Virus record (IMG/VR): IMGVR_UViG_3300033145_000684
Span: 1 to 36,139 of that record
DNA length: 36,139 bases
Source of the DNA: a virus
Lineage: Duplodnaviria; Caudoviricetes
Strand: one strand, 5' to 3'
Positions within the stretch are counted from its first letter, which is position 1. The number at the start of each line of letters is the position of its first letter. Made by a program: the position numbers and the translations under genes. Of this stretch, positions 2,029-19,384 are shown piece by piece. The notes under the pieces were generated by a model that searched no databases, was not told the origin of the DNA, and was given only the letters and a program-made list of their open reading frames with translations.

Positions 2029-2763
2029 ATGAGATATATATTAGGCCCGTGTGTAATTGACGATTATGTGTTTGAGATAGCCGAGGAGCTAAAGTCTATT
2101 TGTTCCGGGTTAGATTGGGTATTTAAGGCTTCGTACGATAAGGCTAACCGGTCTGAATTAGAGTCTTATCGTGGTCCTGGTCTTGAGGAGGGGTTAAGGG
2201 TACTATCTGACATTAAGGACATGGGTTTAAGGGTAACTTCGGATGTTCATACTGTAGAGCAGGTTGAGAAGGTTAAAGACGTTTTGGACATTATTCAGGT
2301 GCCTGCGTTTTTATGTCGTCAGACCGATCTTTTATTAGCTGCCGGGGGTAGTGGTCTTGAGGTGAACTTAAAAAAAGGTCAATTTATGAGTCCGTGGCAG
2401 ATGGGCGGGTCTGTGGGGAAGGTTCGGCACGGTCAGAACATGGCGGGTCATCCTAAAGGGGTTACGATAATTGAGAGGGGTACTTGTTTCGGGTACAATA
2501 ATCTTGTTGTGGATTTTAGGGGTGTGTCTCAGATGAGACAGTTTTGGCCTGTTATATTTGATGCTACACATAGTGTTCAGTTGCCCGGTGTTGGGGGAGA
2601 GGTCGAGTATGTTCCGGTCTTGGCGAGGGCGGCTGTAGCGGTTGGGGTGGACGGTATTTTCATGGAGGTTCATTCTGATCCGGAGAAGGCTAAGTGTGAC
2701 GGTGCTAATTCTGTAAAATTGAGTGATTTACCCGGAATATTAGAAGAATTGGAGGGGATGTGA
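2029..2763 (+). CDS. kdsA: 3-deoxy-D-manno-octulosonate 8-phosphate (KDO8P) synthase, metal-dependent type
   Basis: Motifs GPCVI, FKASYDKANRS, RGPGLEEG, PAFLCRQTDL, KKGQF, ERG..FGYNNLVVD, DATHSVQ, FMEVH..P..AKCDG. KANRS and PAFL separate KdsA from DAHP synthase. Confidence 0.93.
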   Translation: MRYILGPCVIDDYVFEIAEELKSICSGLDWVFKASYDKANRSELESYRGPGLEEGLRVLSDIKDMGLRVTSDVHTVEQVEKVKDVLDIIQVPAFLCRQTDLLLAAGGSGLEVNLKKGQFMSPWQMGGSVGKVRHGQNMAGHPKGVTIIERGTCFGYNNLVVDFRGVSQMRQFWPVIFDATHSVQLPGVGGEVEYVPVLARAAVAVGVDGIFMEVHSDPEKAKCDGANSVKLSDLPGILEELEGM

Positions 2764-3017
2764 TGGGTGAAATATTAGAGGTACTTTTCCCAACTAACAC
2801 GGAAAAGATTGACAAAGACGAAAAACTTTGCAGTTTGATCAGGGCAAGAATCGCGGAGCGCAATGTTCCTAAAAAGATATTAGCCCGTAAGTGCGATATT
2901 GACAATTCGCTATTCTCGAAAATGCTTCATGGGGACAGGGTTTTTACCCCGGCGATCATAGTGAAGTTGACAGAAGAACTTGAACTGGGGCAACATATTC
3001 AGCGTTTGGGATTATAA
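2763..3017 (+). CDS. XRE/Cro-family helix-turn-helix regulator
   Basis: LIRARIAERNVPKKILARKCDIDNSLFSKMLHGDR..IVKLTEELEL HTH pattern. GGAGGGG RBS at 2751-2757. Confidence 0.75.
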   Translation: MGEILEVLFPTNTEKIDKDEKLCSLIRARIAERNVPKKILARKCDIDNSLFSKMLHGDRVFTPAIIVKLTEELELGQHIQRLGL

Positions 3018-3059
3018 TATAGCAGCATAACCACAATCTAAACGAATTGGAGGGGATAA

Positions 3060-3257
3060 ATGGAAGTACAACGAAAATGTATAGTGGATGACCCAGAAAA
3101 CGAGGGGAAATATATTGCTGTTTATATATGCCCAAAAGAGGGGTGTGAAAATCTTTTAATTTCAGAGGATAAGATAAAAGCAATGAAAAAAGAAATTAAA
3201 GATGGTCGAGTCATTGCAATGAAGTGTAAAAAATGTTCAGAAATAATTGAATTTTAG
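3060..3257 (+). CDS. Small zinc-ribbon-like hypothetical protein
   Basis: CPKEGC..CKKC motifs and a strong RBS. Confidence 0.6.
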   Translation: MEVQRKCIVDDPENEGKYIAVYICPKEGCENLLISEDKIKAMKKEIKDGRVIAMKCKKCSEIIEF

Positions 3258-3288
3258 GGGCTATTTTAGAGGAATTGGAGGGGATGTA

Positions 3289-4297: not shown

Positions 4298-4299
4298 CA

Positions 4300-4316: not shown

Positions 4317-4388
4317 CGGCCTGATCAGCCGGAACAAGCAATATGAAGCCATGCGGGGCCGCATATACCCGTGTGGCTTTTTTATTGC
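4317..4388 (+). promoter_or_regulatory. Structured leader/attenuator upstream of terL (small hairpin plus intrinsic-terminator-like hairpin)
   Basis: CGGC-CTGATCA-GCCG hairpin, then a 12-bp stem AAGCCATGCGGG (4346-4357)/CCCGTGTGGCTT (4368-4379) with two G-U pairs and a T-tract to 4383. Outer GCAATA/TATTGC pairing. Confidence 0.65.
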
Positions 4389-4399
4389 GGGAGGCATAC

Positions 4400-5938
4400 A
4401 TGATAGACGGTGACATGCCAGCAGGATGGTTAAGCGTATTAACCTGGCCTTATTTTTATTATCGCCAGCAGCAGCAGTATATGTTGGGGGATGCATGGCA
4501 GGTGTGGATAATCGCCGGCAATGGAACGGGAAAGTCTTTACTTGTCTATAACACTCTTGCATTGCAGATGTTGGGGCTTCATCCCAAACAGATAGGTAGA
4601 CCCCCTATTAAGATCAAGGTTTTAGTACCGTCATTTGATTATGTTGAGGATGTGGCTCTCGAAAAGCTGTTAAGTGCTCAAACCGTAATATTTACTAAAC
4701 TTGACGATACTCAGAAAGCATGGGTTGAGTTGTTAGATAAGAACGGTCTTATAGATCAGTTTACGGAGCCTTCAAACGGTAATGTCGGGTCGATTGAAAT
4801 CCCGCCTATGTTACCGCCTGATGAGATAAAGAAGGGGTACTCAAGGGAACACAAGGCCGTAGCTCTAAAGAATAAGTCCGCAATCTGGTTTGTCACATCT
4901 GAACAAGGCTGGCAGGCTCAAAGAGGCGGGGAGCACGATATATTAGCCTGTGACGAGGAAGGTGACGAAAGGGTATGGGACGAATTAAAGAGAGGACTGA
5001 GAAATGCTAAAGGCGGTGGGAGAATATACGCCGGTCTTACTCCCCCGTATCAGGAAGGTCAGGGTCCGACCTGGACGAAAGAGAAAATCCTTGATGCTTC
5101 TGTTTATGACGAAAATATAACGGTCATAAACGCTTGCATGAACGATAATCCGGCAATCACGGAGAAGTTTATTGAGGAATTTTCAAAGGGTAAGACCCAG
5201 AAACAAATAGATGTTCAGATTTACGGCAGATACCCGACCTGGGGAGACCTTGTTCATCCCGACTTTGAGGATTTTGAGTGGAATCCTGCCAAGGTTACGG
5301 GTCATTTGCTTAGAAACGACACTCCCATGCCGGATAATCATGCAGTTGATTGGGTAATGGCGTTTGACTGGCATCCGAGCAAGCCGTGTGCCGCGGTATT
5401 TGGCTGGATTGATAGGGGGGGAAACTTAACATTTTACGATGAGTTAGACAAGGAATTAGGGGAGGGTAAAGAAATTGGAGAACTCGCAGACATTTTCAAC
5501 GCTATTGAAGGATTGCCTCATAGTAAAAGAAAGTTTAGGCGCTGGCAAGACCCCTCAGCTAAATCGCAATACAATGCGGTACAGAGAGGATTCAACGCTT
5601 GGAACGCTTTTCGGCAACACGGAATTGTTACTTCCGCAGGAAAGAACAGAGATCCTTCAGTTGGTATCTCAATTGTCAACGAGTATTTTAAAGGTAATGG
5701 CAAGGATCATCCAAGAATATTCATCTATGAACGATGCAGATACCTCAGACAGTACTTAAACAACCATTACTGGAAGAGGGGTGAGGACGGTGTAGGGAAG
5801 CCTGACCCGAAATGGTCGGACTATCCGATTACGGTCAGATACATCGCACAAGAAGTAGGTAGAAGGTCTCACAGGCATGGCAGGTGGCCCTTACAGTCGT
5901 TTAAGAAACAAAGACAAGTTTATCATTTGGAGGGATAA
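4400..5938 (+). CDS. terL: Terminase large subunit
   Basis: Walker A IAGNGTGKS, Walker B ILACDEE, coupling motif GLTP, RNase H-like nuclease AFDWH..QDPSA. ATG 4400 follows GGAGG. Confidence 0.92.
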   Translation: MIDGDMPAGWLSVLTWPYFYYRQQQQYMLGDAWQVWIIAGNGTGKSLLVYNTLALQMLGLHPKQIGRPPIKIKVLVPSFDYVEDVALEKLLSAQTVIFTKLDDTQKAWVELLDKNGLIDQFTEPSNGNVGSIEIPPMLPPDEIKKGYSREHKAVALKNKSAIWFVTSEQGWQAQRGGEHDILACDEEGDERVWDELKRGLRNAKGGGRIYAGLTPPYQEGQGPTWTKEKILDASVYDENITVINACMNDNPAITEKFIEEFSKGKTQKQIDVQIYGRYPTWGDLVHPDFEDFEWNPAKVTGHLLRNDTPMPDNHAVDWVMAFDWHPSKPCAAVFGWIDRGGNLTFYDELDKELGEGKEIGELADIFNAIEGLPHSKRKFRRWQDPSAKSQYNAVQRGFNAWNAFRQHGIVTSAGKNRDPSVGISIVNEYFKGNGKDHPRIFIYERCRYLRQYLNNHYWKRGEDGVGKPDPKWSDYPITVRYIAQEVGRRSHRHGRWPLQSFKKQRQVYHLEG

Positions 5939-6632: not shown

Positions 6633-6944
6633 ATGACAATTATATCAACAAGCAATCCTATTCATGCGGATGCCGCAGGTACGTTGTGGGATGACAGTAC
6701 AGGAGTGGGAAAATCCCTGCGTCTTGTTCAATGGATAGATGACAACGGTGATATTGTGCATGACAGTACCTTAGTTCTAACGATTAACGGAATTACTTTA
6801 ACCGCAAAAATTCAGCCGTTGAACGATAATCTGCATTTTGGTGCGGTTGCGTGGCAGATTGGGCCGTTCAATCCTGGAATATCTGTCACTTCGTTTGTTA
6901 TAACCACGATGGCAACAGGCCATCTGCATGTATGGGTAACATAA
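6633..6944 (+). CDS. Small beta-rich hypothetical protein, possibly structural
   Basis: 103-aa Thr/Val/Gly-rich ORF with GGGAG RBS. Confidence 0.55.
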   Translation: MTIISTSNPIHADAAGTLWDDSTGVGKSLRLVQWIDDNGDIVHDSTLVLTINGITLTAKIQPLNDNLHFGAVAWQIGPFNPGISVTSFVITTMATGHLHVWVT

Positions 6945-8179
6945 TGAAATGCCGAATCTGTAATACTGATACAATCGAGTATTTAAGCCTGGGAGATCAT
7001 CCGCCATCGGATAATTTCCTTACGAAAGAGCAGCTTGGGCAAGCCGGTGAAAAGGTGTTTCCCCTCACCTTAGTTTACTGCCCAAGCTGCTCATTATCTC
7101 AACTGAGCTATGTAGTGCCGGCCGATGAACTTTACAATAACGAGTATCCGTATGAGACAGGGATAAACCCAGGGGGTGTTAGACACTTTGAGTCAATGGC
7201 ACGGTCAATTGATGCGGAGTTCAAACCAGGTTATGTTGTGGACATAGGAAGCAATGACGGTACGCTGCTTAACGGTTTTTACTGTAGGGTGTGTGGTATC
7301 GAGCCTGTCTGGAAGATAGCCGAGAAAGCCAAGGTGCACACCATAAACAGCTTTTTCAATATGGATGCCGTGACGAAAGCACTTGTTTATGGCGGTGAAG
7401 TCGATGTTGTAACCGCCACAAACGTATTTGCTCATATAGACGACCTTCACGGGTTTATGGAGTGCCTGGATTGCTTGTTATCACATGACGGTGTATTTGT
7501 CATGGAAGCACCTTATTTTGTGGATATGATTAAAGACTTAGCGTTTGACACGGTGTATCACGAACACTTGTCTTATTTATCCATCAAACCGTTATCTCGT
7601 TTATTTCGAGAATACGGCATGGAGATATTTGATGTCAGGCATTTTCCTATCCATTGTGGAACCATGAGATATTATGTGGCACGAAAGGGTGTGTATAAAT
7701 TCAGAACGGCTGTTGATAAGTATTTTGAAGCTGAGTTGGAATATCATAATATTGACAGATTGAAGGAATTTGGGAGGGATGTTTGGCAACTTCTTGGTCA
7801 ATTTGTAGCTGTGCTTTGGACAATGAACGCTCGTGGTCGTGTAGTTGGGGTATCAGCCCCGGCAAAGGGAAATACGCTGTTAAATTCAAATAATATGCCA
7901 GGAAAGCATGTAATTGAATATATCACAGAAACATCAGACAAAAAGATAGGGAAGTTTACACCAGGTGCTCATATTCCTGTAGTGCCAGATAGTAGATTGA
8001 TTGAAGATCAACCCGACTATGCAATTATTTTCGCTCATAATTGGGCTGATCAAATAAAAGAAAACCTAAAAGATTATAAAGGGGAATGGGTTATAGCAAA
8101 TGCAAAAGGACTCAAAGATTTATATAGCAGGCCATACGGGCCTGGTTGGCAGCGCAATAGTCAGAGAGTTGCAGCGTAA
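6944..8179 (+). CDS. NDP-hexose C-methyltransferase (TylC3/EryBIII/TcaB9-like)
   Basis: Zn motif CRIC..CPSCSLSQL, SAM motif VDIGSNDGTLL, TNVFAHI, FDTVYHEHLSY, IHCGTMR, APAKGNTLLN, GKFTPGAHIPV. TAATG start at 6944. Confidence 0.9.
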   Translation: MKCRICNTDTIEYLSLGDHPPSDNFLTKEQLGQAGEKVFPLTLVYCPSCSLSQLSYVVPADELYNNEYPYETGINPGGVRHFESMARSIDAEFKPGYVVDIGSNDGTLLNGFYCRVCGIEPVWKIAEKAKVHTINSFFNMDAVTKALVYGGEVDVVTATNVFAHIDDLHGFMECLDCLLSHDGVFVMEAPYFVDMIKDLAFDTVYHEHLSYLSIKPLSRLFREYGMEIFDVRHFPIHCGTMRYYVARKGVYKFRTAVDKYFEAELEYHNIDRLKEFGRDVWQLLGQFVAVLWTMNARGRVVGVSAPAKGNTLLNSNNMPGKHVIEYITETSDKKIGKFTPGAHIPVVPDSRLIEDQPDYAIIFAHNWADQIKENLKDYKGEWVIANAKGLKDLYSRPYGPGWQRNSQRVAA

Positions 8180-9044
8180 GGGGTATAAGAACTTAATAAC
8201 TCGTACTCACTCTGAACTTAGTTTAATGATATTTGACGATGTTGAAGAATTTTTTATAGAAGAATGTCCCGAATATGTTTTTCATTGTGCGGGAACTGTG
8301 GGGGGTATATCCAAAGCAATTAAATATCCAAGCCGGATGTTGTCTGATAATATACGAATGGGTATTCATGTGTTGGGTCATGCTGCAACTTTCGGGACAA
8401 AAAAACTACTTAACTTAGGATCATCCTGCATATATCCTGTTGCCGGCGAACAACCGTATAGGGAAGAACAGCTTGGAACTGGCAAGACCGATGAAAATTG
8501 GAGTTACGCTATAGCGAAAATTGCAGTAATTGAATACGCAAGAGCATTACACAAAGAACATGGAAAAAACTTTATCACGGCAATTCCATGCAACCTATAT
8601 GGGATTAATGACAACTTCGGTGATAACGGGCATGTAATCCCGATGCTGATTAGGAAGTTCTCTGAGCATAATGGTGAACCAATCAAAATATGGGGAGATG
8701 GAACACAGTTTAGAGAGTTTCTTTATTCTGATGATTTCGCTGAATGTGCTGTATGGTTGATGGAAACATGGGAATATGAAGATTTATACGATGGTGTTGT
8801 TAATGTTGGGAGTGGCAAACAAATTTCAATAAATATTCTTAGAAGAATAATTGGCAAAATAATACTCAACGATGACTATGATTACTATTACACAGCGAAC
8901 AGACCATCAGGTATCCAATCAAAGCTAATGGACGATGCAATTATAACTCATTTGGGGTGGTATCCTAAAACATCATTAAAAGAGGGGATTGAGAAAACGT
9001 ATTCCTGGTATAAGGAGAATCATGCCACAAACGTATATTATTAA
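8100..9044 (+). CDS. fcl: GDP-L-fucose synthase-like epimerase/reductase
   Basis: IAGHTGLVGSAI, VGGI, LGSSCIYP, YAIAK (YxxxK), PCNLYG, HVIP, WGDGTQFREFLYSDD. Confidence 0.88.
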   Translation: MQKDSKIYIAGHTGLVGSAIVRELQRKGYKNLITRTHSELSLMIFDDVEEFFIEECPEYVFHCAGTVGGISKAIKYPSRMLSDNIRMGIHVLGHAATFGTKKLLNLGSSCIYPVAGEQPYREEQLGTGKTDENWSYAIAKIAVIEYARALHKEHGKNFITAIPCNLYGINDNFGDNGHVIPMLIRKFSEHNGEPIKIWGDGTQFREFLYSDDFAECAVWLMETWEYEDLYDGVVNVGSGKQISINILRRIIGKIILNDDYDYYYTANRPSGIQSKLMDDAIITHLGWYPKTSLKEGIEKTYSWYKENHATNVYY

Positions 9045-9056: not shown

Positions 9057-9902
9057 ATGAAAATAGCACACTTAGTAAATCCGGTTAATATGCCCGATGA
9101 TCGAGATTTAAGCTGGCAACAGCCCATAACATACGAATCTATGAAACGGGCAAAGGAGTTTTCTAAGGATGAAGTTCATGTGGAACAAGTTGCGTGTTTT
9201 TATCCTGAAGATGAAGATATGGTTCCTGATGGCTTTATCAAGACTAAGCCGTTAGAAATGTCGGCGTTAGATATTCAGGATTTTAAGATACCAAGAAAGT
9301 TGCCGTTATTCAAGGAAATGCTTGAAAGATTGTACGAGACTTCCGATGCTGACTATTTCATACAGACAAATGCAGACATTGGCTTAATGCCTCATTTTTA
9401 TTCGTTGGTTAAGGCTTTAATAGAAGACGGAAACGATTCGTTTTGCATAAACAAGAGGATTTTACCAGAACAGGTCAAGGATTACCTGTTGCCGATAATT
9501 TGGTCATTCATAGGCGGGGAACATGCAGGGCATGATTGCTTTGTGTTCAGGAGAGAATTATATCCTATCTTGAGATTAGGTAATATTGTAATGGGTACAC
9601 CGTGGAGCGAAACGACCTTAATAACAAACCTTGTAGCATTTTCAAAGAACTTCAAGGTGCTAAAGAACGCAAACGCAACATTTCACCTGGGGGATTCCCG
9701 TATCTGGTTGCCACAAGAATTTAATGATTATAGAATTTTAAATACCAATGAATTTGCGAGAATCTTAAAAATGTTGAGCAAGAAAAAGAGATCAATCTTA
9801 AAGCACGAAACCATAAAGTATTTACTTGGCAAATTAGTACACGAAGTAACGAACTATAAGAACGAGACGTATAGTAAGGATTGTTGGAAATTCGTTAACT
9901 AA
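9057..9902 (+). CDS. Putative glycosyltransferase (GT-A-like)
   Basis: DYFIQTNADI (DxD-like after a hydrophobic strand), HAGHDCFVF, and position next to sugar-nucleotide genes. Confidence 0.5.
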   Translation: MKIAHLVNPVNMPDDRDLSWQQPITYESMKRAKEFSKDEVHVEQVACFYPEDEDMVPDGFIKTKPLEMSALDIQDFKIPRKLPLFKEMLERLYETSDADYFIQTNADIGLMPHFYSLVKALIEDGNDSFCINKRILPEQVKDYLLPIIWSFIGGEHAGHDCFVFRRELYPILRLGNIVMGTPWSETTLITNLVAFSKNFKVLKNANATFHLGDSRIWLPQEFNDYRILNTNEFARILKMLSKKKRSILKHETIKYLLGKLVHEVTNYKNETYSKDCWKFVN

Positions 9903-10083: not shown

Positions 10084-10086
10084 TTT

Positions 10087-10198: not shown

Positions 10199-10546
10199 AT
10201 GGAACGAACTCATGGAAGTTGGGGAGAGAAACTGAACGTATTCAGGAATGATTTATGTGAGGTCAGTATCTTAAACCTCGTACCGAACCAACGATGCTCA
10301 TGGCACAAACATGCTTCAAAATATAATTTGTTTCATGTGCTTGAGGGGGAGTTATTTATCAAAACAGATAAGGGCATATCACGATTAAAAGAAGAGGGGT
10401 TTTTTACTACACGCCCTGGGGAAATGCATGAGTTTCAGACGGCTTCAAAGCCAGCAAAAATCATGGAGATTATGTACGTCAAGTATGATCCTGAAGACAT
10501 TCAGAGGGAAACAATAGGGGGATCAATAGAGGTTACTGATGAATAA
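10199..10546 (+). CDS. Cupin-domain protein (sugar isomerase-like)
   Basis: SWG..CSWHKH..LFHVLEG..PGEMHEF cupin metal motifs. Confidence 0.8.
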   Translation: MERTHGSWGEKLNVFRNDLCEVSILNLVPNQRCSWHKHASKYNLFHVLEGELFIKTDKGISRLKEEGFFTTRPGEMHEFQTASKPAKIMEIMYVKYDPEDIQRETIGGSIEVTDE

Positions 10547-12467
10547 GAGAGATGACCGTATATTTAAACACTTGATGGAAAGATACAAATTTCACTGGGA
10601 TGCTAATCAGTACTATCGAACTCAGCATGACGAAAACTTGGAGTATTATCGTGGTTATCGAAATGCGGCTGATTATCCACTTGTGTATAACGAGAACTTC
10701 AATCGTATTCTTCCTATTATTTACACTATTTTGTCAAGGTTTATGGATCAGCTATATCAGTCCTCGAACATTATATCCGTAAAGCCGAAAAAGGGTGTGG
10801 ATATTGAGAGAGCAAAAGCGGTTGAGGGCGTACTGAACCATCAGTTTACATCTCTGAACAACATTGACATGCAGGGCGGGTCGTATTTGACTATGATGAA
10901 ATGGTTTTTTAACCAGCTTACTTTCGGGAAGGGTATTGCGAAAGCGTACTGGCGGCATGAGGAACGCATAACTCCCAAAAGAATTGCCTTGCCCATGCCT
11001 AAGTTTGACAGGTTAGGCAACTTTCAGGGTTACGATACTATGGACTTCTTAGACCAGACCATGCAGACGGTTTATGACGGACCGTATGTTGAAATCCTGC
11101 ATAACAAGATGTTTCTCCCCCATCCCGAATATAAAAACATTCAGCAGATGCCACAGGTTTTTTGCATATACAAGCGAACCATTGACGAAATTAAACGCAA
11201 AGCAGATCAAGGGATTTACAAAAACATAAACGACCTTGGAATTAAAGGCATTGGCATGGCATCAGCCCAGTCGAGCGATTCAAGGGAAATGTTTGTCAAG
11301 TCGTTATCAATAGAGGGAGCTTTTCAAACAGAGGATAGTGAGAGTTCACTTCAATCTCCTGAAGTGGATATCATAGAAGCCTATGGCAAAATGATCCTTA
11401 AAGACGAACCTTACACTGTGGGAACAGGAATACAAATCAAAGGCGTGGAAGAAGAAGCCATCGTTCATATCGGGAATTACAAGACCATCCTGTCGCTTCA
11501 GAAGAACACATACGGCGTAAGACCGTTCTTTGACATAGGGTGTTACATGCATCCCGAACTATACTGGGATTTAGGAATGGTAGAACTTACTAAGGGTATT
11601 CAGGAACAGGTGAATAATTTAGCTAACCTTAGAATCCAGAACGTGATGATGCAGATAAATCAAATGCTCATGGTGAATGTGAACGCTGACATTGACCCGG
11701 AAGCGTTGGTCTGGAAACCGTTTGGGATTATACCCGTTGATGATCCAACAGACGTTGTTCCCCTATCTGTACCTGATTATCACTCTAACTTATTCGTGGA
11801 ACAGGAAACATTTTATAAGGACACTATCCAAGACTTAACTGGAATGTACGATTACAACATGGGGCAGACTCCCCAAAGGCAGGAAAGGGTCGGGGTTGTA
11901 TATTCCATTCAGCAGATGGGAGAAGCCAGAGCCAAGTTAATGCTGATGTCAAGTGACTTTTTGGGCATGAGTCCGTTGTTAAAGTACATGATGATTTTGA
12001 ATACTTTTCATCTTCCAAGCGGGTTTGAGTATAGGCATGGCAGTTCAGACCAACCGCAGTTCAGTAACATTTTCGGGGAAGATATTCATCCTGACTATGA
12101 CTTTACGGCAAGGTACACATCAATGGAACCTGCTCTTGGGAAGCAGGCAAGGTTAGAAAGGTTATTCCAGTTAGCCGCAATGTGGAAGGACAACCCATGG
12201 ATAAATCAATATCAATGGAACAAGACCCTTATGGAATTAGGTGATGTAAGGGAAGCCGAGTATTTGCTTAAAACTCCACAACAGATGCAGCAGGAACAAG
12301 TGCAAGCCGCCAAAATGCAAATGATGGCAGAACAGCAAAAACAACAATACGAGACTCAGGGCAAGATTCAGACAAGCCACAAGGATTTTCAGGAAGCTGG
12401 TGCTCTTGCAGATCAGGGGTTTGAACACGACATGGCATTAGAAGCGATAAAGGCAATAGCTAAATAA
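10539..12467 (+). CDS. Portal protein (P22/SU10-like)
   Basis: 642 aa, between terL and scaffold/capsid; FGKGIAKAYW, PFF..GMVELTKGIQEQVNNLANLRIQN, IQDLTGM and a Q-rich helical C-terminal barrel. Confidence 0.88.
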   Translation: MNKRDDRIFKHLMERYKFHWDANQYYRTQHDENLEYYRGYRNAADYPLVYNENFNRILPIIYTILSRFMDQLYQSSNIISVKPKKGVDIERAKAVEGVLNHQFTSLNNIDMQGGSYLTMMKWFFNQLTFGKGIAKAYWRHEERITPKRIALPMPKFDRLGNFQGYDTMDFLDQTMQTVYDGPYVEILHNKMFLPHPEYKNIQQMPQVFCIYKRTIDEIKRKADQGIYKNINDLGIKGIGMASAQSSDSREMFVKSLSIEGAFQTEDSESSLQSPEVDIIEAYGKMILKDEPYTVGTGIQIKGVEEEAIVHIGNYKTILSLQKNTYGVRPFFDIGCYMHPELYWDLGMVELTKGIQEQVNNLANLRIQNVMMQINQMLMVNVNADIDPEALVWKPFGIIPVDDPTDVVPLSVPDYHSNLFVEQETFYKDTIQDLTGMYDYNMGQTPQRQERVGVVYSIQQMGEARAKLMLMSSDFLGMSPLLKYMMILNTFHLPSGFEYRHGSSDQPQFSNIFGEDIHPDYDFTARYTSMEPALGKQARLERLFQLAAMWKDNPWINQYQWNKTLMELGDVREAEYLLKTPQQMQQEQVQAAKMQMMAEQQKQQYETQGKIQTSHKDFQEAGALADQGFEHDMALEAIKAIAK

Positions 12468-12478
12468 AGGGGGATAAC

Positions 12479-12664
12479 ATGGCAGAAAAACATAAATCTA
12501 AAATTCCATATGAAATGCTTGGGGAGATATTAAAAGCATATGAGCATGGAAGAAAAGAAGATTTAGAATTGTATGAAAACGATTATATCATGTGCCCTGA
12601 TAATATAATTTGGGCAAATTGGACTGAGATTTATGAAATTAGAGATAAGATAAAGGTTTTGTAA
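12479..12664 (+). CDS. Hypothetical protein
   Basis: 61-aa ORF with a G-rich RBS. Confidence 0.5.
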   Translation: MAEKHKSKIPYEMLGEILKAYEHGRKEDLELYENDYIMCPDNIIWANWTEIYEIRDKIKVL

Positions 12665-13012
12665 ATGAGAAACCTCGTAACTATATTTGAGAAGCTGTTT
12701 AACGAGAATGATAGTTTTGCACGGCAGTCTCAGAATTACACAAGAGCGTTAAAGACTCAAGAATGGAAGTTCTTGGCAGATGCGATTTTATTAATTCGAG
12801 GTCAAATGGCACAGGATATGTTTTCAAAGAAGCACACGGAATTGACCGAATCGGAAAAGGATGTGGTTCAGAAAACGTACTATAACATAAATCAAATACT
12901 GGACTTCTTAGGTAATCCGCAAGGGTGGATTAACAGAAGGACTAAATTTAAACAAGCATTAGCCGACCAGAGTAAGACATTGTCGAGCAAGATGGGAGGA
13001 ACAACATGGTAG
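12665..13012 (+). CDS. Hypothetical helical protein in the head module
   Basis: Position between portal and scaffold. Confidence 0.6.
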   Translation: MRNLVTIFEKLFNENDSFARQSQNYTRALKTQEWKFLADAILLIRGQMAQDMFSKKHTELTESEKDVVQKTYYNINQILDFLGNPQGWINRRTKFKQALADQSKTLSSKMGGTTW

Positions 13013-13788
13013 AATCAGGAGTGGAACTTCCGAATGTGGAAGAACCAACAAAGAAGGATGAGGTAAAAGTGGAAGTGGACGTTGACGGTTTGATGGCTGA
13101 ACTAACAAAAGCTGGCGTTACAGATGCCAAAAGTCTGAGTGGAAAACTCGAAGCTGGATATGAGGCAGGGAACATGGCCCGATTATTAGGTGACGAGCGT
13201 GACCGCACTAAAGACTTAGAAGCCAAAATCGAGAAACTTCAGGCAGCACCAAAGGATGAGTTCGATTATTCGCAAGAGAGCCGTCCTATTGACATTGAGA
13301 CAACCATTGAAAGAAGCGTAGGCAAGGTTCTTGATTCAAGAGATGCAAAAGCTCGAAAGGTTCAAGAAGCAAGCTATGCCGCATGGAACAGGATTCAATC
13401 TGATGAGGATTATCACCTTATTAAAGATGTATGGGAGGAAAGACTCAAAGATCCTGGCTTTGTGATGAAAATTCAAAATGGTTCGCTTAATCCTGTAGAT
13501 GAGTACACTTCAACTTTAAGGTCGTACTATAAGACCTTGCTTAAACAATCGGCTGAAACAATAACAACTATGAAGGGCGGCAACTTAAAACCCCCTCATG
13601 TTGAAACAGGGGAGCGTGCACCTGCTAACTTAGTTAGTGAGGGTGATGAAAACACATCAACAGAGCGCAAATTTCTTGATGCAATAGGAGAGAAAATCAA
13701 GAAGGGCTATATTCCAAATGAGGACGAGGAAGCAATGATAGCCGAATGTGTGGTTATAGCTGGTGTGGGCAACGCTCCTACTAAATAG
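13006..13788 (+). CDS. Capsid scaffolding protein (putative)
   Basis: Acidic, helical/coiled-coil 260-aa protein immediately upstream of the capsid gene; GGAGG RBS. Confidence 0.7.
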   Translation: MVESGVELPNVEEPTKKDEVKVEVDVDGLMAELTKAGVTDAKSLSGKLEAGYEAGNMARLLGDERDRTKDLEAKIEKLQAAPKDEFDYSQESRPIDIETTIERSVGKVLDSRDAKARKVQEASYAAWNRIQSDEDYHLIKDVWEERLKDPGFVMKIQNGSLNPVDEYTSTLRSYYKTLLKQSAETITTMKGGNLKPPHVETGERAPANLVSEGDENTSTERKFLDAIGEKIKKGYIPNEDEEAMIAECVVIAGVGNAPTK

Positions 13789-13798
13789 GAGATAAATA

Positions 13799-15049
13799 AT
13801 GACTACAGCATCAGCATGGTTAATGACCTTTGGACATACAGAAGGCCGAGGTCAATTCCAGCGAGATATAGTTGGTGACGTGCCTTGGGGTGTCGTTACC
13901 GGGACAGAAAAAAGGGATGTGTCTGAAGCGTTAGACTTACTTGCGCTTGCAGACACTCCTTTTATTAATAGGATTGGTTGGGGGCCGGAGTCCGGTGGAA
14001 CTACAATCGAGTGGATTTCTGAGGACTTAGGCACCGGCAAGCTGAAAACCATTTCTATTATTGCGAGTGAATGGACTTCATTCGTAACGACAAGCATTGA
14101 CGGTATTCAGCCGTCACAGGCAATCAAACAGGTAAAACAAGGGTCTGTGTTGTATTACTTTGACTCTGTAACGAGTGTTCATACCCTTGCGGTTGTGACT
14201 TCAACTCCTACTGCCGGTGGTACAGGAACAAGTATTACCATGAGCCTTATTACTGCAGGGCACAGCAATGCTCTTATGAGCATGTTCGCTTCTGTGAGAG
14301 CCGGTGAGGTTTTTTATATACTCGGTGCGTATGCAAATGAAGGTTCCATTCCCAATGAACCTACACCGAGGACGAGGGTTGTGTTGTCTAACGCATTCAC
14401 GATTCTTCGGCAGGACGTACAGATTACCGGCACTATGAAATCAACGGATATGTATGCAATTGGCAGGGAGGATAGGCATCAGGTTATGCTCCGGCTGAAA
14501 GAGCTCCAGCGAGATCGTGAACGTGCTGCTCTCTATTCTGTGTATGTTGCCAAAACAACCGCAATGGCTGGATTAATAGACGGTTGTTTGGGATTTCTTG
14601 GTCAGTACAGTGGAAATCATATTGACAATACTACCAGGTCTTTAACTGAGAGTGCGGTTAATACTGTGGTTTCCTCTGTCTGGGAGAACGGCGGGAGAAA
14701 TTTGAGTTTCTTCGGTCATATTAACCAGACCGCCAAGTTTACCCGGTGGGATAAGCATCGTATTCGCACACGGGTAAATGAAGGAAAGGGCGGGGGGCGT
14801 ATTACGTCATACCTGACCGAATCCGGCATTGAGATTGACCTGATTCCAATGCCAAACGTACCGACCAACCTCGCTTTTGTGGTTGATACCTCTAAGGTTA
14901 GACTTAGAGCCAAACGAGGCAGGAAGGCCATTATGGAGAAACTCGGCAAACAGGGCGACTTCGATGATTGGCAGATTATCTCTGAATTTTCTATGGAAAT
15001 GAAGGGAGCTAATCTGAGGCAGCATGGAATGTTTAGCAAGCTAACGTAG
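13799..15049 (+). CDS. Major capsid protein (DUF5309/SU10-like) with a Ser/Thr-rich insertion
   Basis: RDVSEALDLL..DTPF..EWISEDL, RVVLSNAFTILRQDVQITGT, ELQRDRERAAL, IISEFSMEMK. AGGAG RBS and triple stop TAG TAA TAA. Confidence 0.85.
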   Translation: MTTASAWLMTFGHTEGRGQFQRDIVGDVPWGVVTGTEKRDVSEALDLLALADTPFINRIGWGPESGGTTIEWISEDLGTGKLKTISIIASEWTSFVTTSIDGIQPSQAIKQVKQGSVLYYFDSVTSVHTLAVVTSTPTAGGTGTSITMSLITAGHSNALMSMFASVRAGEVFYILGAYANEGSIPNEPTPRTRVVLSNAFTILRQDVQITGTMKSTDMYAIGREDRHQVMLRLKELQRDRERAALYSVYVAKTTAMAGLIDGCLGFLGQYSGNHIDNTTRSLTESAVNTVVSSVWENGGRNLSFFGHINQTAKFTRWDKHRIRTRVNEGKGGGRITSYLTESGIEIDLIPMPNVPTNLAFVVDTSKVRLRAKRGRKAIMEKLGKQGDFDDWQIISEFSMEMKGANLRQHGMFSKLT

Positions 15050-15064
15050 TAATAACATATACTT

Positions 15065-15085
15065 GGAGGGGTGAAATTCCCCTCC
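15065..15085 (+). terminator. GC-rich hairpin after the capsid gene (weak terminator or stabiliser)
   Basis: GGAGGGG-TGAAATT-CCCCTCC followed only by TTAAC. Confidence 0.55.
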
Positions 15086-15093
15086 TTAACTAA

Positions 15094-16317
15094 ATGAATG
15101 ACGCAGAAATTTACGATAAACGAACAGAACTTCACGGTGTAATTTCAAAGAATAACTTTGAATTTATCAAGACCGTCAATGAGATGACTCTTGGACATCT
15201 CAGGGAAGAATGGGTCAAGAACGTCAAGAAGAATAAACAGGCATGGCGAAAACACCAGAGATTAAGAAACCTATTAGGAATTGGCAAAAACAAGGCGGTT
15301 ATTGGTATCGGGTCGGGAGTGTCATTTAACAAGAATAAAGACGTACTAAAGAGATACGTTAATGCTGACGGTATAAAACCCTGGTCCGAAAGAGATTTTA
15401 TTACAATAGCTGCCAACCATCAATTCAAACCACTTTTAGAGATAGGAATTATTCCTGATTTTGTTTTATTGGTGGACGCTTCTGATGTGGTTATGGATCA
15501 GTTAAACAAAGACATCCCAAAGGAAGCAAGGGGTGTCCAGTTAATAACGGGTGTTCATGCACATCCGAAAGTCATTAAGGAGTGGGATAGGCAGGGTAGA
15601 GGAATTGTATTCTATACCACACCATCCTCTGAAATCAGGGATGTTGTTGAAAAGCATTTAAAGCGAGGAAAGAGACTCCATGAAATAGAGTTGGGCGGGA
15701 ACGTATTGAACGGTGCGTTTATGATTGCGGCTGGTGCGTTACAGTCAACTATTTTTATGGGTGTGGGTAATGACTTGTCGTTTGAGATTAACGATGATGT
15801 GGATAAACAACGCAATGGATATTATGCCGATGGTGATTATTCGAGTAACGCTGAAGTGACCGGAACCGGCAGAGACGAGGGCAAGTCAACAAAACGGTGG
15901 GCTGGTTTCTCATTAGAACGGAAACGAATCATCAGAATTGAAGAACCTATTGGTTCTAAAAAACGCTATGATTTTGAGCTTGATATTGTCGGTATGTCTC
16001 ACACTTTATGGGTGTATAAGATTTGGCTTGAATGTACCCTGATGGGTCAGACCAATCAGCCTGTTTATCTTCATTACTTTAACTGTACCGAGGGTGGAAC
16101 TCTTGGGGTTATGGCAAAAGACGATTCTGACAAAGCTATACCTGATCCTGACAATTGGTATTTTTTAGACGAAGTTTGCATTAACAAGCATACCGGAAAA
16201 CAAATGTATATGACCGCTATGTTAGAAGATGCAATTGAAATTTATTTAAAAACAAAAAGGAGTCAACAATGGCAACCCAGCCCAGATGCCCAGTATGCGG
16301 CTGTATTGGGAATGTAG
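15094..16317 (+). CDS. Maf/DUF115 (MAF_flag10) family protein, putative CMP-ulosonic-acid glycosyltransferase
   Basis: WVKNVKKN, AVIGIGSGVSFNKN (GxGPSL-like), LLEIGIIPDFVLLVD, GGNV..A..A, GVGNDLSF, FNCTEGG. Confidence 0.78.
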   Translation: MNDAEIYDKRTELHGVISKNNFEFIKTVNEMTLGHLREEWVKNVKKNKQAWRKHQRLRNLLGIGKNKAVIGIGSGVSFNKNKDVLKRYVNADGIKPWSERDFITIAANHQFKPLLEIGIIPDFVLLVDASDVVMDQLNKDIPKEARGVQLITGVHAHPKVIKEWDRQGRGIVFYTTPSSEIRDVVEKHLKRGKRLHEIELGGNVLNGAFMIAAGALQSTIFMGVGNDLSFEINDDVDKQRNGYYADGDYSSNAEVTGTGRDEGKSTKRWAGFSLERKRIIRIEEPIGSKKRYDFELDIVGMSHTLWVYKIWLECTLMGQTNQPVYLHYFNCTEGGTLGVMAKDDSDKAIPDPDNWYFLDEVCINKHTGKQMYMTAMLEDAIEIYLKTKRSQQWQPSPDAQYAAVLGM

Positions 16318-16463
16318 CATTAGGAGACTATTGCAAGAGACACCATCCCAACGCTGACGATGACGAAAAGAGCGTGTTTGAAGATTTTCCAAGTTCGTTT
16401 GATGGGGAATTTTTTCCCGGTGAGTTCGGTATAATGAAAGACAAATTTGGATATGAGCGATGA
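16269..16463 (+). CDS. Small Cys/His-rich hypothetical protein
   Basis: AAGGAG RBS; CPVCGC..YCKRH. Confidence 0.5.
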   Translation: MATQPRCPVCGCIGNVALGDYCKRHHPNADDDEKSVFEDFPSSFDGEFFPGEFGIMKDKFGYER

Positions 16464-16714
16464 GCGGAAAAGAGGTCATAGTTACTTTAGGTGATCGTAG
16501 AGGTTCGGGGTTTTGCCTCAAATGCGGCACGGATTTAATTCATCCGATTAACGACTATCAGTGTTGTTCTGAATGCACGACATACATAGAGCATTGCTTA
16601 CTTGAATTAAAGTACAAGAACCAACGAAAGAAGGGCAAGGTCGGGGGAATGAGGACTGTGGACAGACGCAATATTATGAGGCAGGTAAGACCTTTGGGGG
16701 TGCCGGTAAAATGA
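16460..16714 (+). CDS. Small zinc-finger hypothetical protein
   Basis: ATGA overlap; CLKC..CSEC. Confidence 0.55.
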   Translation: MSGKEVIVTLGDRRGSGFCLKCGTDLIHPINDYQCCSECTTYIEHCLLELKYKNQRKKGKVGGMRTVDRRNIMRQVRPLGVPVK

Positions 16715-17481
16715 AATGTGTGCTTTGTGGTGCTAATAAATATATACCGGCATCTGATTATTGTAAGCCGGACAAGTACGAAAAATGGGTGGGTTTAACT
16801 AAGATAGAACGATGCTGGAAACATTGTCTTCAGTGTGGGATGTGGCAGCAAGAACGCAATTATCCTTTAAGTCAACTGGAAAAGATTTACGAGAATGGTT
16901 ACAGACATCCTGATTTCAGGGGAGAAACTATCAAGGAAGCGTTTGACAGAATCATGGCAATTCCCGATAGCGAAAACGACACAAGGGTTAAATGGTTGAT
17001 CGACACCATGGGCGTTCCTGAAACAATGCTGGACATTGGTTCTGGTATAGGGGTGTTCCCTTACAGGATGAAAGAGGAAGGTTCTGCCGTGTGGTGTACG
17101 GAAGAGAATAATGACAGCTTAGAATTTATAAACAGTCTTGGCCTTAAATGCTTAAAAGGCATACCTGACTATGCGAAGTTTGAATTAGTGTCGTTGGTTC
17201 ATCTTCTGGAACACATTGAAGATCCAAGAACATTCTTAACAGGATTGCACAAGATTCTTCTGGCACATGGCAAATTATTCGTAGAGGTTCCTGATGCAGA
17301 AGCGTTTAACTGGCTTGATAAAGACCATGATGACTTTAATAGCTGTCATGTATGCTCTTATACTGTTTCGACCCTTTACGGCGTTCTGAGAGCGTCTGGG
17401 TTCGATGTAAGGGATATTCATAGGGTGTTTTACCCGGAACGTAAACTTTCAAGGATAATGGCAATATGTCAAAGAACATAA
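16711..17481 (+). CDS. Class I SAM-dependent methyltransferase with N-terminal Zn motif (Methyltransf_23-like)
   Basis: CVLC..CLQC, MLDIGSGIG, FELVSLVHLLEHIEDP, GKLFVEVP. Confidence 0.85.
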   Translation: MKCVLCGANKYIPASDYCKPDKYEKWVGLTKIERCWKHCLQCGMWQQERNYPLSQLEKIYENGYRHPDFRGETIKEAFDRIMAIPDSENDTRVKWLIDTMGVPETMLDIGSGIGVFPYRMKEEGSAVWCTEENNDSLEFINSLGLKCLKGIPDYAKFELVSLVHLLEHIEDPRTFLTGLHKILLAHGKLFVEVPDAEAFNWLDKDHDDFNSCHVCSYTVSTLYGVLRASGFDVRDIHRVFYPERKLSRIMAICQRT

Positions 17482-18119
17482 TGGCAAATATAGTTACTCG
17501 ACCTGATGGAACTGAGCTTGAAATACCATTATTAGGAGACAGGTTCAAGCACTTTGACTTACACGAAAATGAGCCGACATTGAGATTTCAGAAGATAAAC
17601 GGCTGGTCGATACTTGAATGTCTTGTGCCCATTATTTTGTTTTATCGGCCATACTGTATTGTAGAGATTGGTGCGGGTGCTTCCACAATTTACCTTGCGA
17701 GGGCTGCTGAAAAGTTCGGGGTGAAATTATACAGTTGCGATAAGTCACCGAGAAAGAACAAGGTCTATTTTAAAGACCATATATTTATTCAGAAGTTCTC
17801 ACATGATTTTATTGAGGAATTTGACGACATTCCTGCGGTTGTCCTTATAGACGCAGATCATAAGTATGAAGTCGCAAAGATGGAGTTTGACTTCTTCTTT
17901 GAGAAACTAATTCCCGGTGGGGTGATATTCCTACACGACACCATGCCGCCTGATGAGGAATACTTATCAGAAACGGCCTGTGCTGATGTGTATAAGTTAA
18001 GACAGGAATTAGAAAAACGTACAGACCTTGACTGTTTCACATGGCCTTACACGGCAGGATATATGGGTCTGACGATGGTGATTAAAAAAGATCCGGAGGG
18101 GAGATATTTTGAACTCTGA
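17466..18119 (+). CDS. Class I SAM-dependent methyltransferase (Methyltransf_24-like)
   Basis: IVEIGAGAST, VLIDADHKYE, LIPGGVIFLHDT. Confidence 0.85.
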   Translation: MSKNIMANIVTRPDGTELEIPLLGDRFKHFDLHENEPTLRFQKINGWSILECLVPIILFYRPYCIVEIGAGASTIYLARAAEKFGVKLYSCDKSPRKNKVYFKDHIFIQKFSHDFIEEFDDIPAVVLIDADHKYEVAKMEFDFFFEKLIPGGVIFLHDTMPPDEEYLSETACADVYKLRQELEKRTDLDCFTWPYTAGYMGLTMVIKKDPEGRYFEL

Positions 18120-18486
18120 AATAGCAAGAATACACCGTGAGGGGGTTGTGTCGGAGCTTGAACAATTAGGATTAGAGCTTGGTTCTAAATACTCTCAGGA
18201 ATGGTTTGAGGAAACCTGGAAAAGACACAAGGGCATTAAAGTGCCTGGTTTTATAGTCACAATAGGTAACGAAACAATGGTGTATGTTGACCAGAAGTAT
18301 CACAGGAAAGGCATAGGAAGCATCCTTATAGACGACACGACTGAAGTTTGGGTATTGGACGGTAATAAGATGGCAGAAGGGTTTTACAGTAAAAACGGTT
18401 TTTACAAAACTGAGACAGCAAGAAGATCAGTTATATTTGACCATGAGGTAGCTGAGAATCTTTGGAAGAAAAATGAAACTGATTAA
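18109..18486 (+). CDS. GNAT-family acetyltransferase (minimal)
   Basis: YVDQKYHRKGIGSILI (motif A) and N..AEGFYSKNGF (motif B). TTG start after GGAGGGG. Confidence 0.78.
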   Translation: MNSEIARIHREGVVSELEQLGLELGSKYSQEWFEETWKRHKGIKVPGFIVTIGNETMVYVDQKYHRKGIGSILIDDTTEVWVLDGNKMAEGFYSKNGFYKTETARRSVIFDHEVAENLWKKNETD

Positions 18487-19384
18487 CAAAGAGGTTCGCA
18501 TAGAGACAACGAATTTTTGTAACGCAAAATGCGTTATGTGTCCGAGGGACGAAATGACCCGCCCTAAAGTTACAATGGGGTATGGCCATTTCGCAGACCT
18601 TGTGGTTCAGGCATATGAGTTAGGAGCGAAACTGATAGCACCGTTTGGATTCGGGGAACCTTTAATAGATCCGACCATTGCCGATAAGGTAGCATTTTGC
18701 ACAAGGATGGGATTAGAGACATTCATCACCACAAACGGAAGTCTATTAGATAGAGATATGACAAAAGACTTAATTGATGCAGGATTAACTCACATTAGAT
18801 TCTCGGCGCATGGAACATACGGTAATTACGAAAAGGTTCACAAGGGATTGAAATTTACCAAGTTTATTGTGAATGTATCTAATTTTCTAACAAAACGAAA
18901 AGACTGCAAGGTAGATGTAACTGCAATGCCTTTGAATGGGGGAAATTCGGAAGAGATTTTAGAGTTCTGGAAAGGCAAGGTTGACGATATTGAAATCTGG
19001 AAACCTCATTCATGGGGAGGCGCAAAGAATTACAGGAACGGAAAAAGAAAGTTAAAAACCTGTGGGAGACCGAAGGTGGGCCCGGTTCAGATTCAGGCAG
19101 ACGGTAAAGTCATACCATGCTGTTTTCTTACAAATGGCGAAATCATATTGGGTGATACATACGAAAACTCAATTGAAGACATATTAAGGAGCGAGAAGTA
19201 TCGAGAATTAAAACGGAAGCATGATACGGGGGACTTAACAGGACTACCGTGTGAAACGTGCGACCAACTAATGATTCAAGACATTTCCCCATTGTTGTAT
19301 TCAAGCATTGACAACGAAATAAACAAAACAAGCTCAACGAAATTCAATTTATTGGAGGAACAAAATGGCATTAACATTAACTGA
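18473..19384 (+). CDS. Radical SAM protein with SPASM/twitch domain
   Basis: IETTNFCNAKCVMC (CxxxCxxC), GFGEPL, TTNGSLL, C-terminal C..IQADGKVIPCC..LG..PCETCD. Confidence 0.92.
   Translation: MKLINKEVRIETTNFCNAKCVMCPRDEMTRPKVTMGYGHFADLVVQAYELGAKLIAPFGFGEPLIDPTIADKVAFCTRMGLETFITTNGSLLDRDMTKDLIDAGLTHIRFSAHGTYGNYEKVHKGLKFTKFIVNVSNFLTKRKDCKVDVTAMPLNGGNSEEILEFWKGKVDDIEIWKPHSWGGAKNYRNGKRKLKTCGRPKVGPVQIQADGKVIPCCFLTNGEIILGDTYENSIEDILRSEKYRELKRKHDTGDLTGLPCETCDQLMIQDISPLLYSSIDNEINKTSSTKFNLLEEQNGININ

What the first reader, a model, noticed from the sequence alone, without database searches (positions are those of the whole stretch)
2029..19384. Candidate phage-encoded virion glycosylation system interleaved with head-morphogenesis genes
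Seen: about ten enzymes sit in three blocks inside the packaging/head region. KdsA lies between terS and terL. A C-methyltransferase, Fcl-like reductase, putative GT and cupin lie between terL and portal. A Maf-like protein, two methyltransferases, a GNAT and a radical SAM enzyme lie between capsid and adaptor. Several overlap or are TAATG/ATGA-coupled to neighbours (cupin overlaps portal; the radical SAM gene overlaps the next small gene), and none shows a signal peptide or obvious transmembrane segment. Established: these families build and tailor nucleotide-activated sugars, and virion glycosylation is known in some actinophages and giant viruses. Inference: the enzymes are late-expressed and cytoplasmic, and decorate the particle with an ulosonic-acid-primed, methylated/acylated glycan, possibly mimicking host LPS or shielding the capsid. 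I do not know of this enzyme combination being characterised in a phage.
Basis: partly seen in the sequence, partly recalled or inferred. Interest (0 to 1): 0.9.

Follow-up and report, generated by a model that had tools for sequence, protein, structure and literature searches.

The report
Phage capsid Kdo-glycosylation gene module
An uncultured short-tailed phage and its relatives keep a flagellin-type sugar transferase right behind their capsid gene, with scattered genes for making the acidic sugar Kdo nearby, so they likely attach Kdo to serines on their own particle, a natural protein modification not yet shown in any organism.

Summary
In detail: ten soluble sugar-type enzymes lie among the head genes. 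They are not one fixed system. The core is a Maf-type transferase, whose model best matches Maf 5mu5 (Z 21.6) with both catalytic acids kept. It follows the capsid gene in 37 of 37 relatives; a radical SAM gene (20 of 21) and a cupin (50 of 58) travel with it. The C-methyltransferase, reductase, GT-A enzyme and one methyltransferase are confined to one subclade, and the GNAT is private. kdsA is optional: kdsA or kdsB occurs in 6 of 87 portal loci, and neuB in 0 of 22 records, whereas a second Maf-bearing lineage has neuB in 36 of 50. A complete relative has no donor gene at all. This points to host CMP-Kdo as the donor. The capsid protein carries a Ser/Thr-rich insertion with five conserved serines, the likely acceptor. 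Best reading (0.65): O-glycosylation of virion proteins; main rival: host-surface modification. Nothing is shown biochemically, and late expression is untested. This scan noted Maf beside capsid genes before on other DNA, once with Kdo; my paper searches found no description.

The parts
15094..16317 (+). Core: Maf-type (PF01973) ulosonic-acid transferase, catalytic domain only; D128 and D227 match the Maf catalytic acids
   Evidence: follows the capsid gene in 37 of 37 relatives
13799..15049 (+). SU10-type major capsid protein with a ~95-residue Ser/Thr-rich insertion (residues 81-176; conserved S90, S94, S123, S135, S165); likely acceptor
15065..15085 (+). G+C-rich hairpin without a T run between capsid and Maf genes; similar hairpins of different sequence in many relatives
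   Evidence: (z -3.05)
18473..19384 (+). Core: radical SAM/SPASM enzyme; nearest solved relatives BtrN and cytosylglucuronate decarboxylase; predicted sugar tailoring
   Evidence: 20 of 21 contigs
10199..10546 (+). Core: small cupin of the mannose-6-phosphate/lyxose isomerase type, overlapping the portal start
   Evidence: 50 of 58 portal loci
2029..2763 (+). Optional donor gene: KdsA, Kdo-8-phosphate synthase
   Evidence: patchy in relatives
6944..8179 (+). Subclade block: NDP-sugar 3-C-methyltransferase (start at TAATG 6942-6946)
8100..9044 (+). Subclade block: Fcl-like NDP-sugar epimerase/reductase; Gmd takes this slot in some relatives
9057..9902 (+). Subclade block: GT-A fold glycosyltransferase of no catalogued family
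16711..17481 (+). Variable slot: class I SAM methyltransferase (PF13489)
17466..18119 (+). Subclade block: SAM methyltransferase (PF13578), seen only in contigs that also carry the GT-A gene
18109..18486 (+). GNAT acetyltransferase, private to this genome
19365..19652 (+). 95-aa Ser/Thr-rich probable virion protein, homologous to the small protein right after Maf in the second lineage; alternative acceptor
   Evidence: E 4.6e-6 against 39 window proteins
10539..12467 (+). SU10-type portal protein
4343..5938 (+). Terminase large subunit
   Evidence: position and homology to relatives
555..1010 (+). Terminase small subunit

Best explanation
This phage encodes a Maf-type transferase directly behind its capsid gene that likely attaches Kdo, or a tailored Kdo, from CMP-Kdo to serines of its own virion proteins, most likely the Ser/Thr-rich insertion of the major capsid protein. 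Shown: the fold and catalytic residues, the fixed position, the patchy kdsA/kdsB, the absence of neuB, and the conserved serines. Inferred: (1) the donor is host CMP-Kdo, topped up in some phages by their own KdsA or KdsB; (2) Maf is made from the capsid transcript and acts in the cytoplasm on subunits or proheads; (3) the radical SAM enzyme, cupin and methyltransferases alter the sugar; (4) in this subclade the C-methyltransferase and Fcl-like enzyme make a GDP-linked 3-C-methyl-6-deoxyhexose that the GT-A enzyme adds as a second sugar. Given virion glycosylation, I put Kdo as donor at about 0.7 and the capsid insertion as acceptor at about 0.55.
For: Fold: best match Maf 5mu5, Z 21.6, rmsd 2.8, 243 aligned, against Z 13.5 for MptE. 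Maf E324 and D415, named as catalytic in 10.1101/2020.06.03.131540, align by my count to D128 and D227, both invariant in 116 sequences. Two bacterial Mafs put Kdo on Ser/Thr of flagellin in E. coli (abstract). Position: Maf follows the capsid gene in 37 of 37 distinct relatives, 34 within 150 nt; 24 of the 37 were not found through Maf. Capsid and Maf trees agree (r 0.88; 11 of 20 supported splits shared). A second lineage has Maf two genes after the capsid gene in 77 of 80 loci; the other 3 end within 400 nt of it. Donor: kdsA or kdsB in 6 of 87 portal loci, always just upstream of terL or cupin-portal (kdsB above cut-off in the two scanned); neuB 0 of 22 records here against 36 of 50 in lineage 2, where kdsA is 0 of 50 above cut-off. 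A complete 46.6-kb relative has cupin, Maf, methyltransferase and radical SAM but no donor gene. Acceptor: insertion Ser+Thr 24% against 14% in the core, higher in 121 of 121 sequences; 5 of 10 conserved insertion columns are Ser against 4 of 132 core columns; the matching insertion of phage VP1 has 9 of 81 by my count.
Against: No biochemical, proteomic or expression data. Four supported capsid-tree splits conflict with the Maf tree. The conserved Ser of bacterial Mafs appears to be Asn203 here (mapping uncertain). kds genes are rare (6 of 87) and 21 of 22 virus records are fragments, so missing neuB is weak per record; the distant relative L029 has a similar capsid protein with NeuB and a NeuA-like gene. 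A host-made nonulosonic acid would also explain missing donor genes. Serine conservation falls to 25-33 of 41 in the more diverse set, related sequences are not independent, and small beta-rich virion proteins are Ser/Thr-rich anyway. Surface exposure of the insertion is inferred from HK97-fold topology, not modelled. One kdsB-bearing contig (L047) lacks the radical SAM gene and shows no cupin. In a known glycosylating group the transferase genes lie near the genome's 3' end (PMC11256854), so adjacency is not the rule.
Confidence: 0.65

Rival explanations
1. The enzymes remodel the host surface (LPS, O-antigen, flagellin or pilin) to block superinfection or change recognition.
For: Kdo is an LPS sugar; the GT-A model's top Foldseek matches include TarP, TarS and RmlT, which act on wall polymers; C-methylated 6-deoxyhexoses occur in LPS (PMC3539893 abstract); a cyanophage's kdsA/kdsB were read as cell-wall modification genes (PMC12801897 passages); flagellin is the only known Maf acceptor; kdsA lies behind a sigma-70-like site.
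Against: No membrane partner among the ten genes; no tyrosine integrase in 22 of 22 records, one of them complete; Maf is fixed behind the capsid gene and co-diverges with it; the phage Maf matches only residues 238-517 of 5mu5 and lacks the C-terminal domain likened to flagellin chaperones.
Confidence: 0.18
2. Two unrelated activities: Maf glycosylates the virion, but the C-methyltransferase, Fcl-like enzyme and GT-A block (and kdsA) act on a different target. This overlaps the best explanation and is counted inside it; the figure is the chance that the block is separate.
For: The block is confined to one subclade, 6 kb from Maf, and is followed by a strong terminator-like hairpin at about 10131-10176.
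Against: It is translationally coupled into the packaging genes; the PF13578 methyltransferase behind Maf occurs only with it, though that may be one event; other relatives put GT2 or sulfotransferase genes directly behind Maf.
Confidence: 0.3
3. The enzymes hypermodify phage DNA with sugars.
For: Virus-encoded glycosyltransferases that glycosylate DNA are known (Pyle 2024, title seen only in a reference list); GT-A fold and methyltransferases fit.
Against: No thymidylate-synthase-family hydroxymethylase in 22 of 22 records; no base-modifying family among 62 proteins of the complete relative; the genes are in the head module; Maf-fold enzymes are known on proteins and glycans. TET/JBP was not searched as a family.
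Confidence: 0.04
4. The PF01973 protein is an MptE-like pyrophosphokinase, and the radical SAM enzyme and cupin modify virion peptides or a cofactor rather than a sugar.
For: Pfam names the family MptE-like; MptE is the second structural match (Z 13.5) and the only weak hit of the close-clade profile (E 0.99); SPASM enzymes often modify peptides.
Against: Maf matches much better by structure and by the wider profile (E 2.5e-12 against 2.5e-7); the DLDG stretch of MptE reads VDAS here; the radical SAM profile is nearest BtrN (E 2.4e-18) and cytosylglucuronate decarboxylase, not peptide maturases; ulosonate genes recur beside phage Mafs.
Confidence: 0.06

Closest known systems
Maf flagellin O-glycosyltransferases (M. 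magneticum Maf, PDB 5mu5, PF01973; G. kaustophilus and C. botulinum Maf)
   Same: Same fold, both catalytic acids, soluble; two bacterial Mafs transfer Kdo to Ser/Thr in E. coli.
   Different: Catalytic domain only; encoded in a phage head operon; no flagellin gene; Kdo would be the natural donor rather than a promiscuous one; acceptor untested.
Virion glycosylation in mycobacteriophages (Che8; Freeman 2023, not held; seen through passages of PMC12619734 and PMC11256854)
   Same: Phage-encoded glycosyltransferases and a proposed glycan coat on capsid subunits.
   Different: There the glycans are at C-termini of capsid and tail tube and, in Maravista, the genes lie near the genome's 3' end; here a Maf-fold enzyme, an acidic 8-carbon sugar and an internal insertion are proposed.
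Cyanophage S-SCSM2R kdsA/kdsB cassette (PMC12801897)
   Same: Phage-borne Kdo synthesis genes; 39.8% identity to this KdsA.
   Different: A 244-kb myovirus; read as host cell-wall modification; no match to either of two phage Maf queries in that collection.
Sugar 3-C-methyltransferases (TcaB9, D-mycarose 3-C-methyltransferase) with GDP-sugar reductases, as in the proposed virenose route
   Same: Full-length sequence match, E 1.5e-58; Gmd or Fcl beside it.
   Different: Product, stereochemistry and acceptor unknown; no Gmd in this window, so the keto-sugar would come from the host or the unseen part of the genome.
Wall-polymer glycosyltransferases TarP/TarS (TarP recalled as prophage-encoded) and serotype-conversion cassettes
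   Same: GT-A fold match, Z 14-15.
   Different: About 10% identity; many GT2-like folds tie; no membrane partner or integrase seen.

Membership tests
Maf flagellin glycosyltransferase | PF01973 domain with Cst-II-like fold | tested here: met
   60 bits against cut-off 34.6; Z 21.6 to 5mu5
Maf flagellin glycosyltransferase | Two catalytic acids (E324, D415 in 5mu5) | tested here: met
   D128 and D227 (positions counted by hand)
Maf flagellin glycosyltransferase | Conserved catalytic Ser (S334/S356) | tested here: inconclusive
   Likely column holds Asn203; the paper's alignment is in a closed supplement
Maf flagellin glycosyltransferase | Three-domain architecture with N-terminal and helical C-terminal domains | tested here: not met
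   407 aa; aligns to 5mu5 residues 238-517 only
Maf flagellin glycosyltransferase | Flagellar locus and flagellin acceptor | tested here: not met
   Head operon in 37 of 37 relatives; no flagellin family hit in the window. Works like a Maf; not filed as a flagellin Maf
Maf flagellin glycosyltransferase | Transfer from CMP-ulosonate to Ser/Thr | not testable with these tools
   needs assay
MptE pyrophosphokinase | Closest fold and DLDG acidic stretch | tested here: not met
   Z 13.5 against 21.6 for Maf; VDAS at that place; importance of the stretch is recalled
KdsA | Curated model cut-off | tested here: met
   PRK05198 319.8 over 242; TIGR01362 305.6 just under 314
KdsA | KANRS motif and Cys/His/Glu/Asp metal ligands | tested here: met
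   all aligned to 1fwn; roles of the residues recalled
GDP-L-fucose synthase (Fcl) | Equivalog cut-off NF047922 | tested here: not met
   279.9 against 500; Fcl-like only
Sugar 3-C-methyltransferase | Zinc-binding, SAM and C-terminal domains | tested here: met
   PF08421 and PF08484 above cut-off
GT-A glycosyltransferase | GT-A fold with conserved acidic motif | tested here: met
   pLDDT 96.7; Z 14-15; invariant T104, N105, D107
GT2 (PF00535) | Sequence family match | tested here: not met
   no Pfam hit at E 0.01
Phage virion glycosylation (Che8 type) | Covalent glycan on virion proteins, dependent on phage genes | not testable with these tools
   no isolate; no cultured phage with a Maf match
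Serotype-conversion cassette | Membrane-bound partners and temperate lifestyle | tested here: inconclusive
   none seen, but the window is a fragment and serine integrases were not searched
DNA hypermodification cassette | Base hydroxymethylase or dioxygenase partner | tested here: inconclusive
   PF00303 0 of 22; TET/JBP not searched as a family

The most novel reading that the evidence does not exclude
A widespread class of uncultured podophages uses a stripped-down Maf as a core head gene to coat the capsid with ulosonic acids; this clade taps the host's CMP-Kdo pool to make natural Ser-O-Kdo, reshapes it with a radical SAM enzyme, and extends it with a branched methyl-deoxysugar, giving the particle an LPS-like coat.
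Probability: 0.35. Interest if true: 0.88.

Novelty: new variant of a known kind. Interest (0 to 1): 0.72.

Why it matters
Phage-directed virion glycosylation is established for few tailed phages, and a 2020 preprint states that Kdo was not known to modify proteins. A Maf fixed beside capsid genes in two large lineages would make acidic sugar coats a common feature of environmental phage particles. It would also reassign many phage 'LPS biosynthesis' auxiliary genes (kdsA, kdsB, neuB, gmd, fcl) from host remodelling to particle assembly. The claim is directly testable in laboratory E. coli, which makes CMP-Kdo, and a single-domain protein O-glycosyltransferase would be a useful glyco-engineering tool.

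Tried and rejected
Complex prediction of Maf with the capsid protein gave no answer. No sequencing run was listed for 10000-19000. Rfam: no match. Sequence search of solved structures with the close-clade Maf and GT profiles gave nothing significant; the wider profile did. No Maf match in 50,697 annotated phage records with two queries; Mx8, 31.6% identical to a lineage-2 capsid protein, has no such gene annotated in that slot. Five distant portal loci (L052-L056, 21-28% identity) showed no capsid or Maf hit and were left out of the counts. Host: portal relatives lie on contigs in MAGs labelled Desulfobacteraceae (2), Thermodesulfobacteriota, Chloroflexota and Thermoplasmata; these may be mis-binned, and KdsA identity to two such MAGs is only 49-55%, so no host is assigned. 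Promoter-like sites are at chance level, so timing cannot be read. Paper searches for phage + Maf + capsid (0 papers), DUF115 + phage + glycosylation (3 unrelated listings), nonulosonic acid + virion terms (4 listings, none with that term), virion glycosylation and kdsA found no description of this arrangement; subscription journals are mostly not covered. The VP1 structure paper was not found, and VP1's genome was not checked for Maf. Cytidylyltransferases were not counted in lineage 2. Look-ups of earlier findings by sequence and by relatives returned nothing.


Full report
Observation. The window is a 36,139-base linear virus record whose + strand carries an SU10-type podophage late region: terS 555-1010, terL 4343-5938, portal 10539-12467, capsid 13799-15049, adaptor 19668-20390. 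The overlaps are real and none of the ten has a clear membrane segment. kdsA is separated from both terminase genes by several small ORFs and lies behind a sigma-70-like site, one of 49 where 50.9 are expected by chance.

Two uncertain proteins. The PF01973 protein folds with pLDDT 91.5. Its best match is the Maf glycosyltransferase 5mu5 (Z 21.6, rmsd 2.8, 243 aligned), then MptE (13.5) and sialyltransferases (about 8). A profile of 22 phage homologues hits 5mu5 at E 2.5e-12 and places Maf E324 and D415 on D128 and D227 (counted by hand). These are the catalytic acids named in 10.1101/2020.06.03.131540 (sections 12 and 15 and the abstract read; its supplement is closed), and both are invariant in 116 close homologues. 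The phage protein covers only the central domain; PMC11339370 (passages) describes two further domains in 5mu5. ORF 9057-9902 folds with pLDDT 96.7 as a GT-A enzyme, tied among GT2-like structures at Z 14-15 and about 10% identity.

What is conserved. I fetched relatives with Maf and GT alignments and then with portal and capsid alignments (80 of 115 metagenome matches were kept by the tool). After dropping loci without a whole capsid gene or with under 400 nt behind it, and duplicates, Maf follows the capsid gene in 37 of 37, within 150 nt in 34. Thirteen of these seeded the alignments; 24 are new. The radical SAM gene lies behind Maf in 20 of 20 loci with 4.5 kb of sequence; one shorter contig, L047, reaches the adaptor without it, giving 20 of 21. 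The cupin is present in 50 of 58 portal loci; five of the eight misses end at or near the portal gene. Capsid and Maf trees for 36 genomes agree (patristic r 0.88; 11 of 20 supported splits shared, 4 in conflict). This shows long shared inheritance, not function. The C-methyltransferase, Fcl or Gmd, GT-A and PF13578 genes map to one subclade that includes the window. The GNAT has no counterpart in any locus.

The donor. kdsA was found in 0 of 21 related virus records, but two metagenome contigs carry it and four contigs carry kdsB, all just upstream of terL or cupin-portal: 6 of 87 distinct portal loci, 4 of 18 with at least 900 nt upstream of terL. The two kdsB proteins scanned pass TIGR00466. 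The four that could be placed fall on three branches away from the window. neuB is in 0 of 22 records of the clade and in the distant L029. A second lineage, reached through distant Mafs, has Maf as second gene after its capsid gene in 77 of 80 loci, not dereplicated; of the 50 records I searched, mostly the longest, 36 have neuB and none has kdsA above cut-off. A terminally repeated 46.6-kb member of the window's clade has cupin, Maf, one methyltransferase and the radical SAM gene, and no kdsA, kdsB, neuB, hydroxymethylase or tyrosine integrase. The simplest reading is a donor that the host makes anyway. CMP-Kdo is such a donor in Gram-negative bacteria (established knowledge), and two bacterial Mafs use it on Ser/Thr in E. 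coli. A host-made nonulosonic acid is not excluded, and most records are fragments.

The acceptor. The capsid protein has about 95 residues more than the SU10 profile, inserted between the two strands that form the E-loop in HK97-type folds (outer-surface position recalled from T4-type insertion domains, not modelled). The insertion is 24% Ser+Thr against 14% in the core, higher in 121 of 121 sequences. Five of its ten best-conserved columns are Ser, against 4 of 132 in the core; in 41 more diverse sequences these serines hold in 25 to 33. The matching insertion of phage VP1 has 9 Ser/Thr in 81 residues, one of them Ser, by my count from a low-confidence alignment; this is one control, and its genome was not checked. 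Maf acceptors are surface Ser/Thr without a sequon. The 95-aa gene after the radical SAM gene is homologous to the small protein after Maf in lineage 2 and is a second candidate.

Tailoring. The radical SAM profile is nearest BtrN (E 2.4e-18) and cytosylglucuronate decarboxylase, both acting on sugar-like substrates (recalled). The cupin resembles mannose-6-phosphate and lyxose isomerases. The C-methyltransferase matches sugar 3-C-methyltransferases over its length. With an Fcl-like enzyme it would give a 3-C-methyl-6-deoxyhexose, a class for which PMC3539893 (abstract only) proposes routes from GDP-mannose or TDP-glucose. That the GT-A enzyme adds it onto the Maf-placed sugar is inference, and the block may have its own target.

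Mechanism and rivals. Most likely (0.65) the capsid transcript also yields Maf, at a level perhaps set by the hairpin between the genes; Maf places Kdo on serines of virion subunits in the cytoplasm; the other enzymes vary the glycan. Host-surface modification (0.18) fits the sugar chemistry and the usual reading of phage kds genes (PMC12801897 passages), but not the fixed position, the missing membrane partners or the missing integrase. DNA modification (0.04) and MptE or peptide chemistry (0.06) fit poorly.

Known and new. Glycans on capsid and tail tube of mycobacteriophages are reported (Freeman 2023, not held; seen through passages of PMC12619734 and PMC11256854). Six searches found no paper on a Maf in a phage head operon, and no annotated phage record matched either Maf query. 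This scan has noted Maf beside capsid genes many times on other DNA, once with CMP-Kdo genes; these are unchecked notes, and my reading was written before I saw them. What this window adds is the split into core and optional parts, the Kdo versus NeuB contrast between lineages, and named candidate serines. I rate it a new variant of a known kind, interest 0.72.

Noticed in passing
L018, L021, L172-L249: A second, larger phage lineage (306-aa capsid protein, 320 matching stretches in IMG/VR, 80 kept) has capsid, ~160-aa small protein, Maf, ~89-aa small protein in fixed order; neuB in 36 of 50 records, 16 of 17 near-complete ones.
   Followed up: yes
L028:9641-11857: A siphovirus-like contig has a Maf between tail-completion genes and a probable tail tube gene (tube call by position and recall), with NeuB upstream.
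   Followed up: partly
L029:5369-12836; L097, L121: Two Maf paralogues per genome; L029 has capsid, Maf, NeuA-like, Maf-methyltransferase fusion, radical SAM and NeuB.
   Followed up: partly
window 29103-34703: Three consecutive late genes (LamG-containing 1012-aa ORF, 196 aa, 647 aa) begin with signal-peptide-like hydrophobic stretches; the complete relative G021 shows the same. Unusual for fibre-like proteins.
   Followed up: no
window 10131-10180: Long hairpin with a T run (z -4.3) just before the cupin-portal genes; terminator-like inside an apparent operon, missed by the terminator scan.
   Followed up: partly
window 53-81: Perfect sigma-70 consensus (12 of 12) in an A+T-rich stretch upstream of terS.
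   Followed up: no
window 1043-1340: Broken HNH-like gene between terS and kdsA; its motifs continue in another frame.
   Followed up: no
L036, L043, L045, L049, L136; L041, L111, L130, L134, L154; L040:6316-9120: The slot behind Maf holds sulfotransferase, GT2-like or hexapeptide acyltransferase genes in other relatives; one has a 934-aa GT2-methyltransferase fusion before the cupin.
   Followed up: partly
L125, L126, L157 portal genes: Portal ORFs about 1 kb longer than usual, possibly inteins.
   Followed up: no
L149:2911-4107; L050:2562-4558: An ADP-ribosyltransferase-like (ART-PolyVal) gene before a portal gene, and an IS21 element upstream of terL.
   Followed up: no
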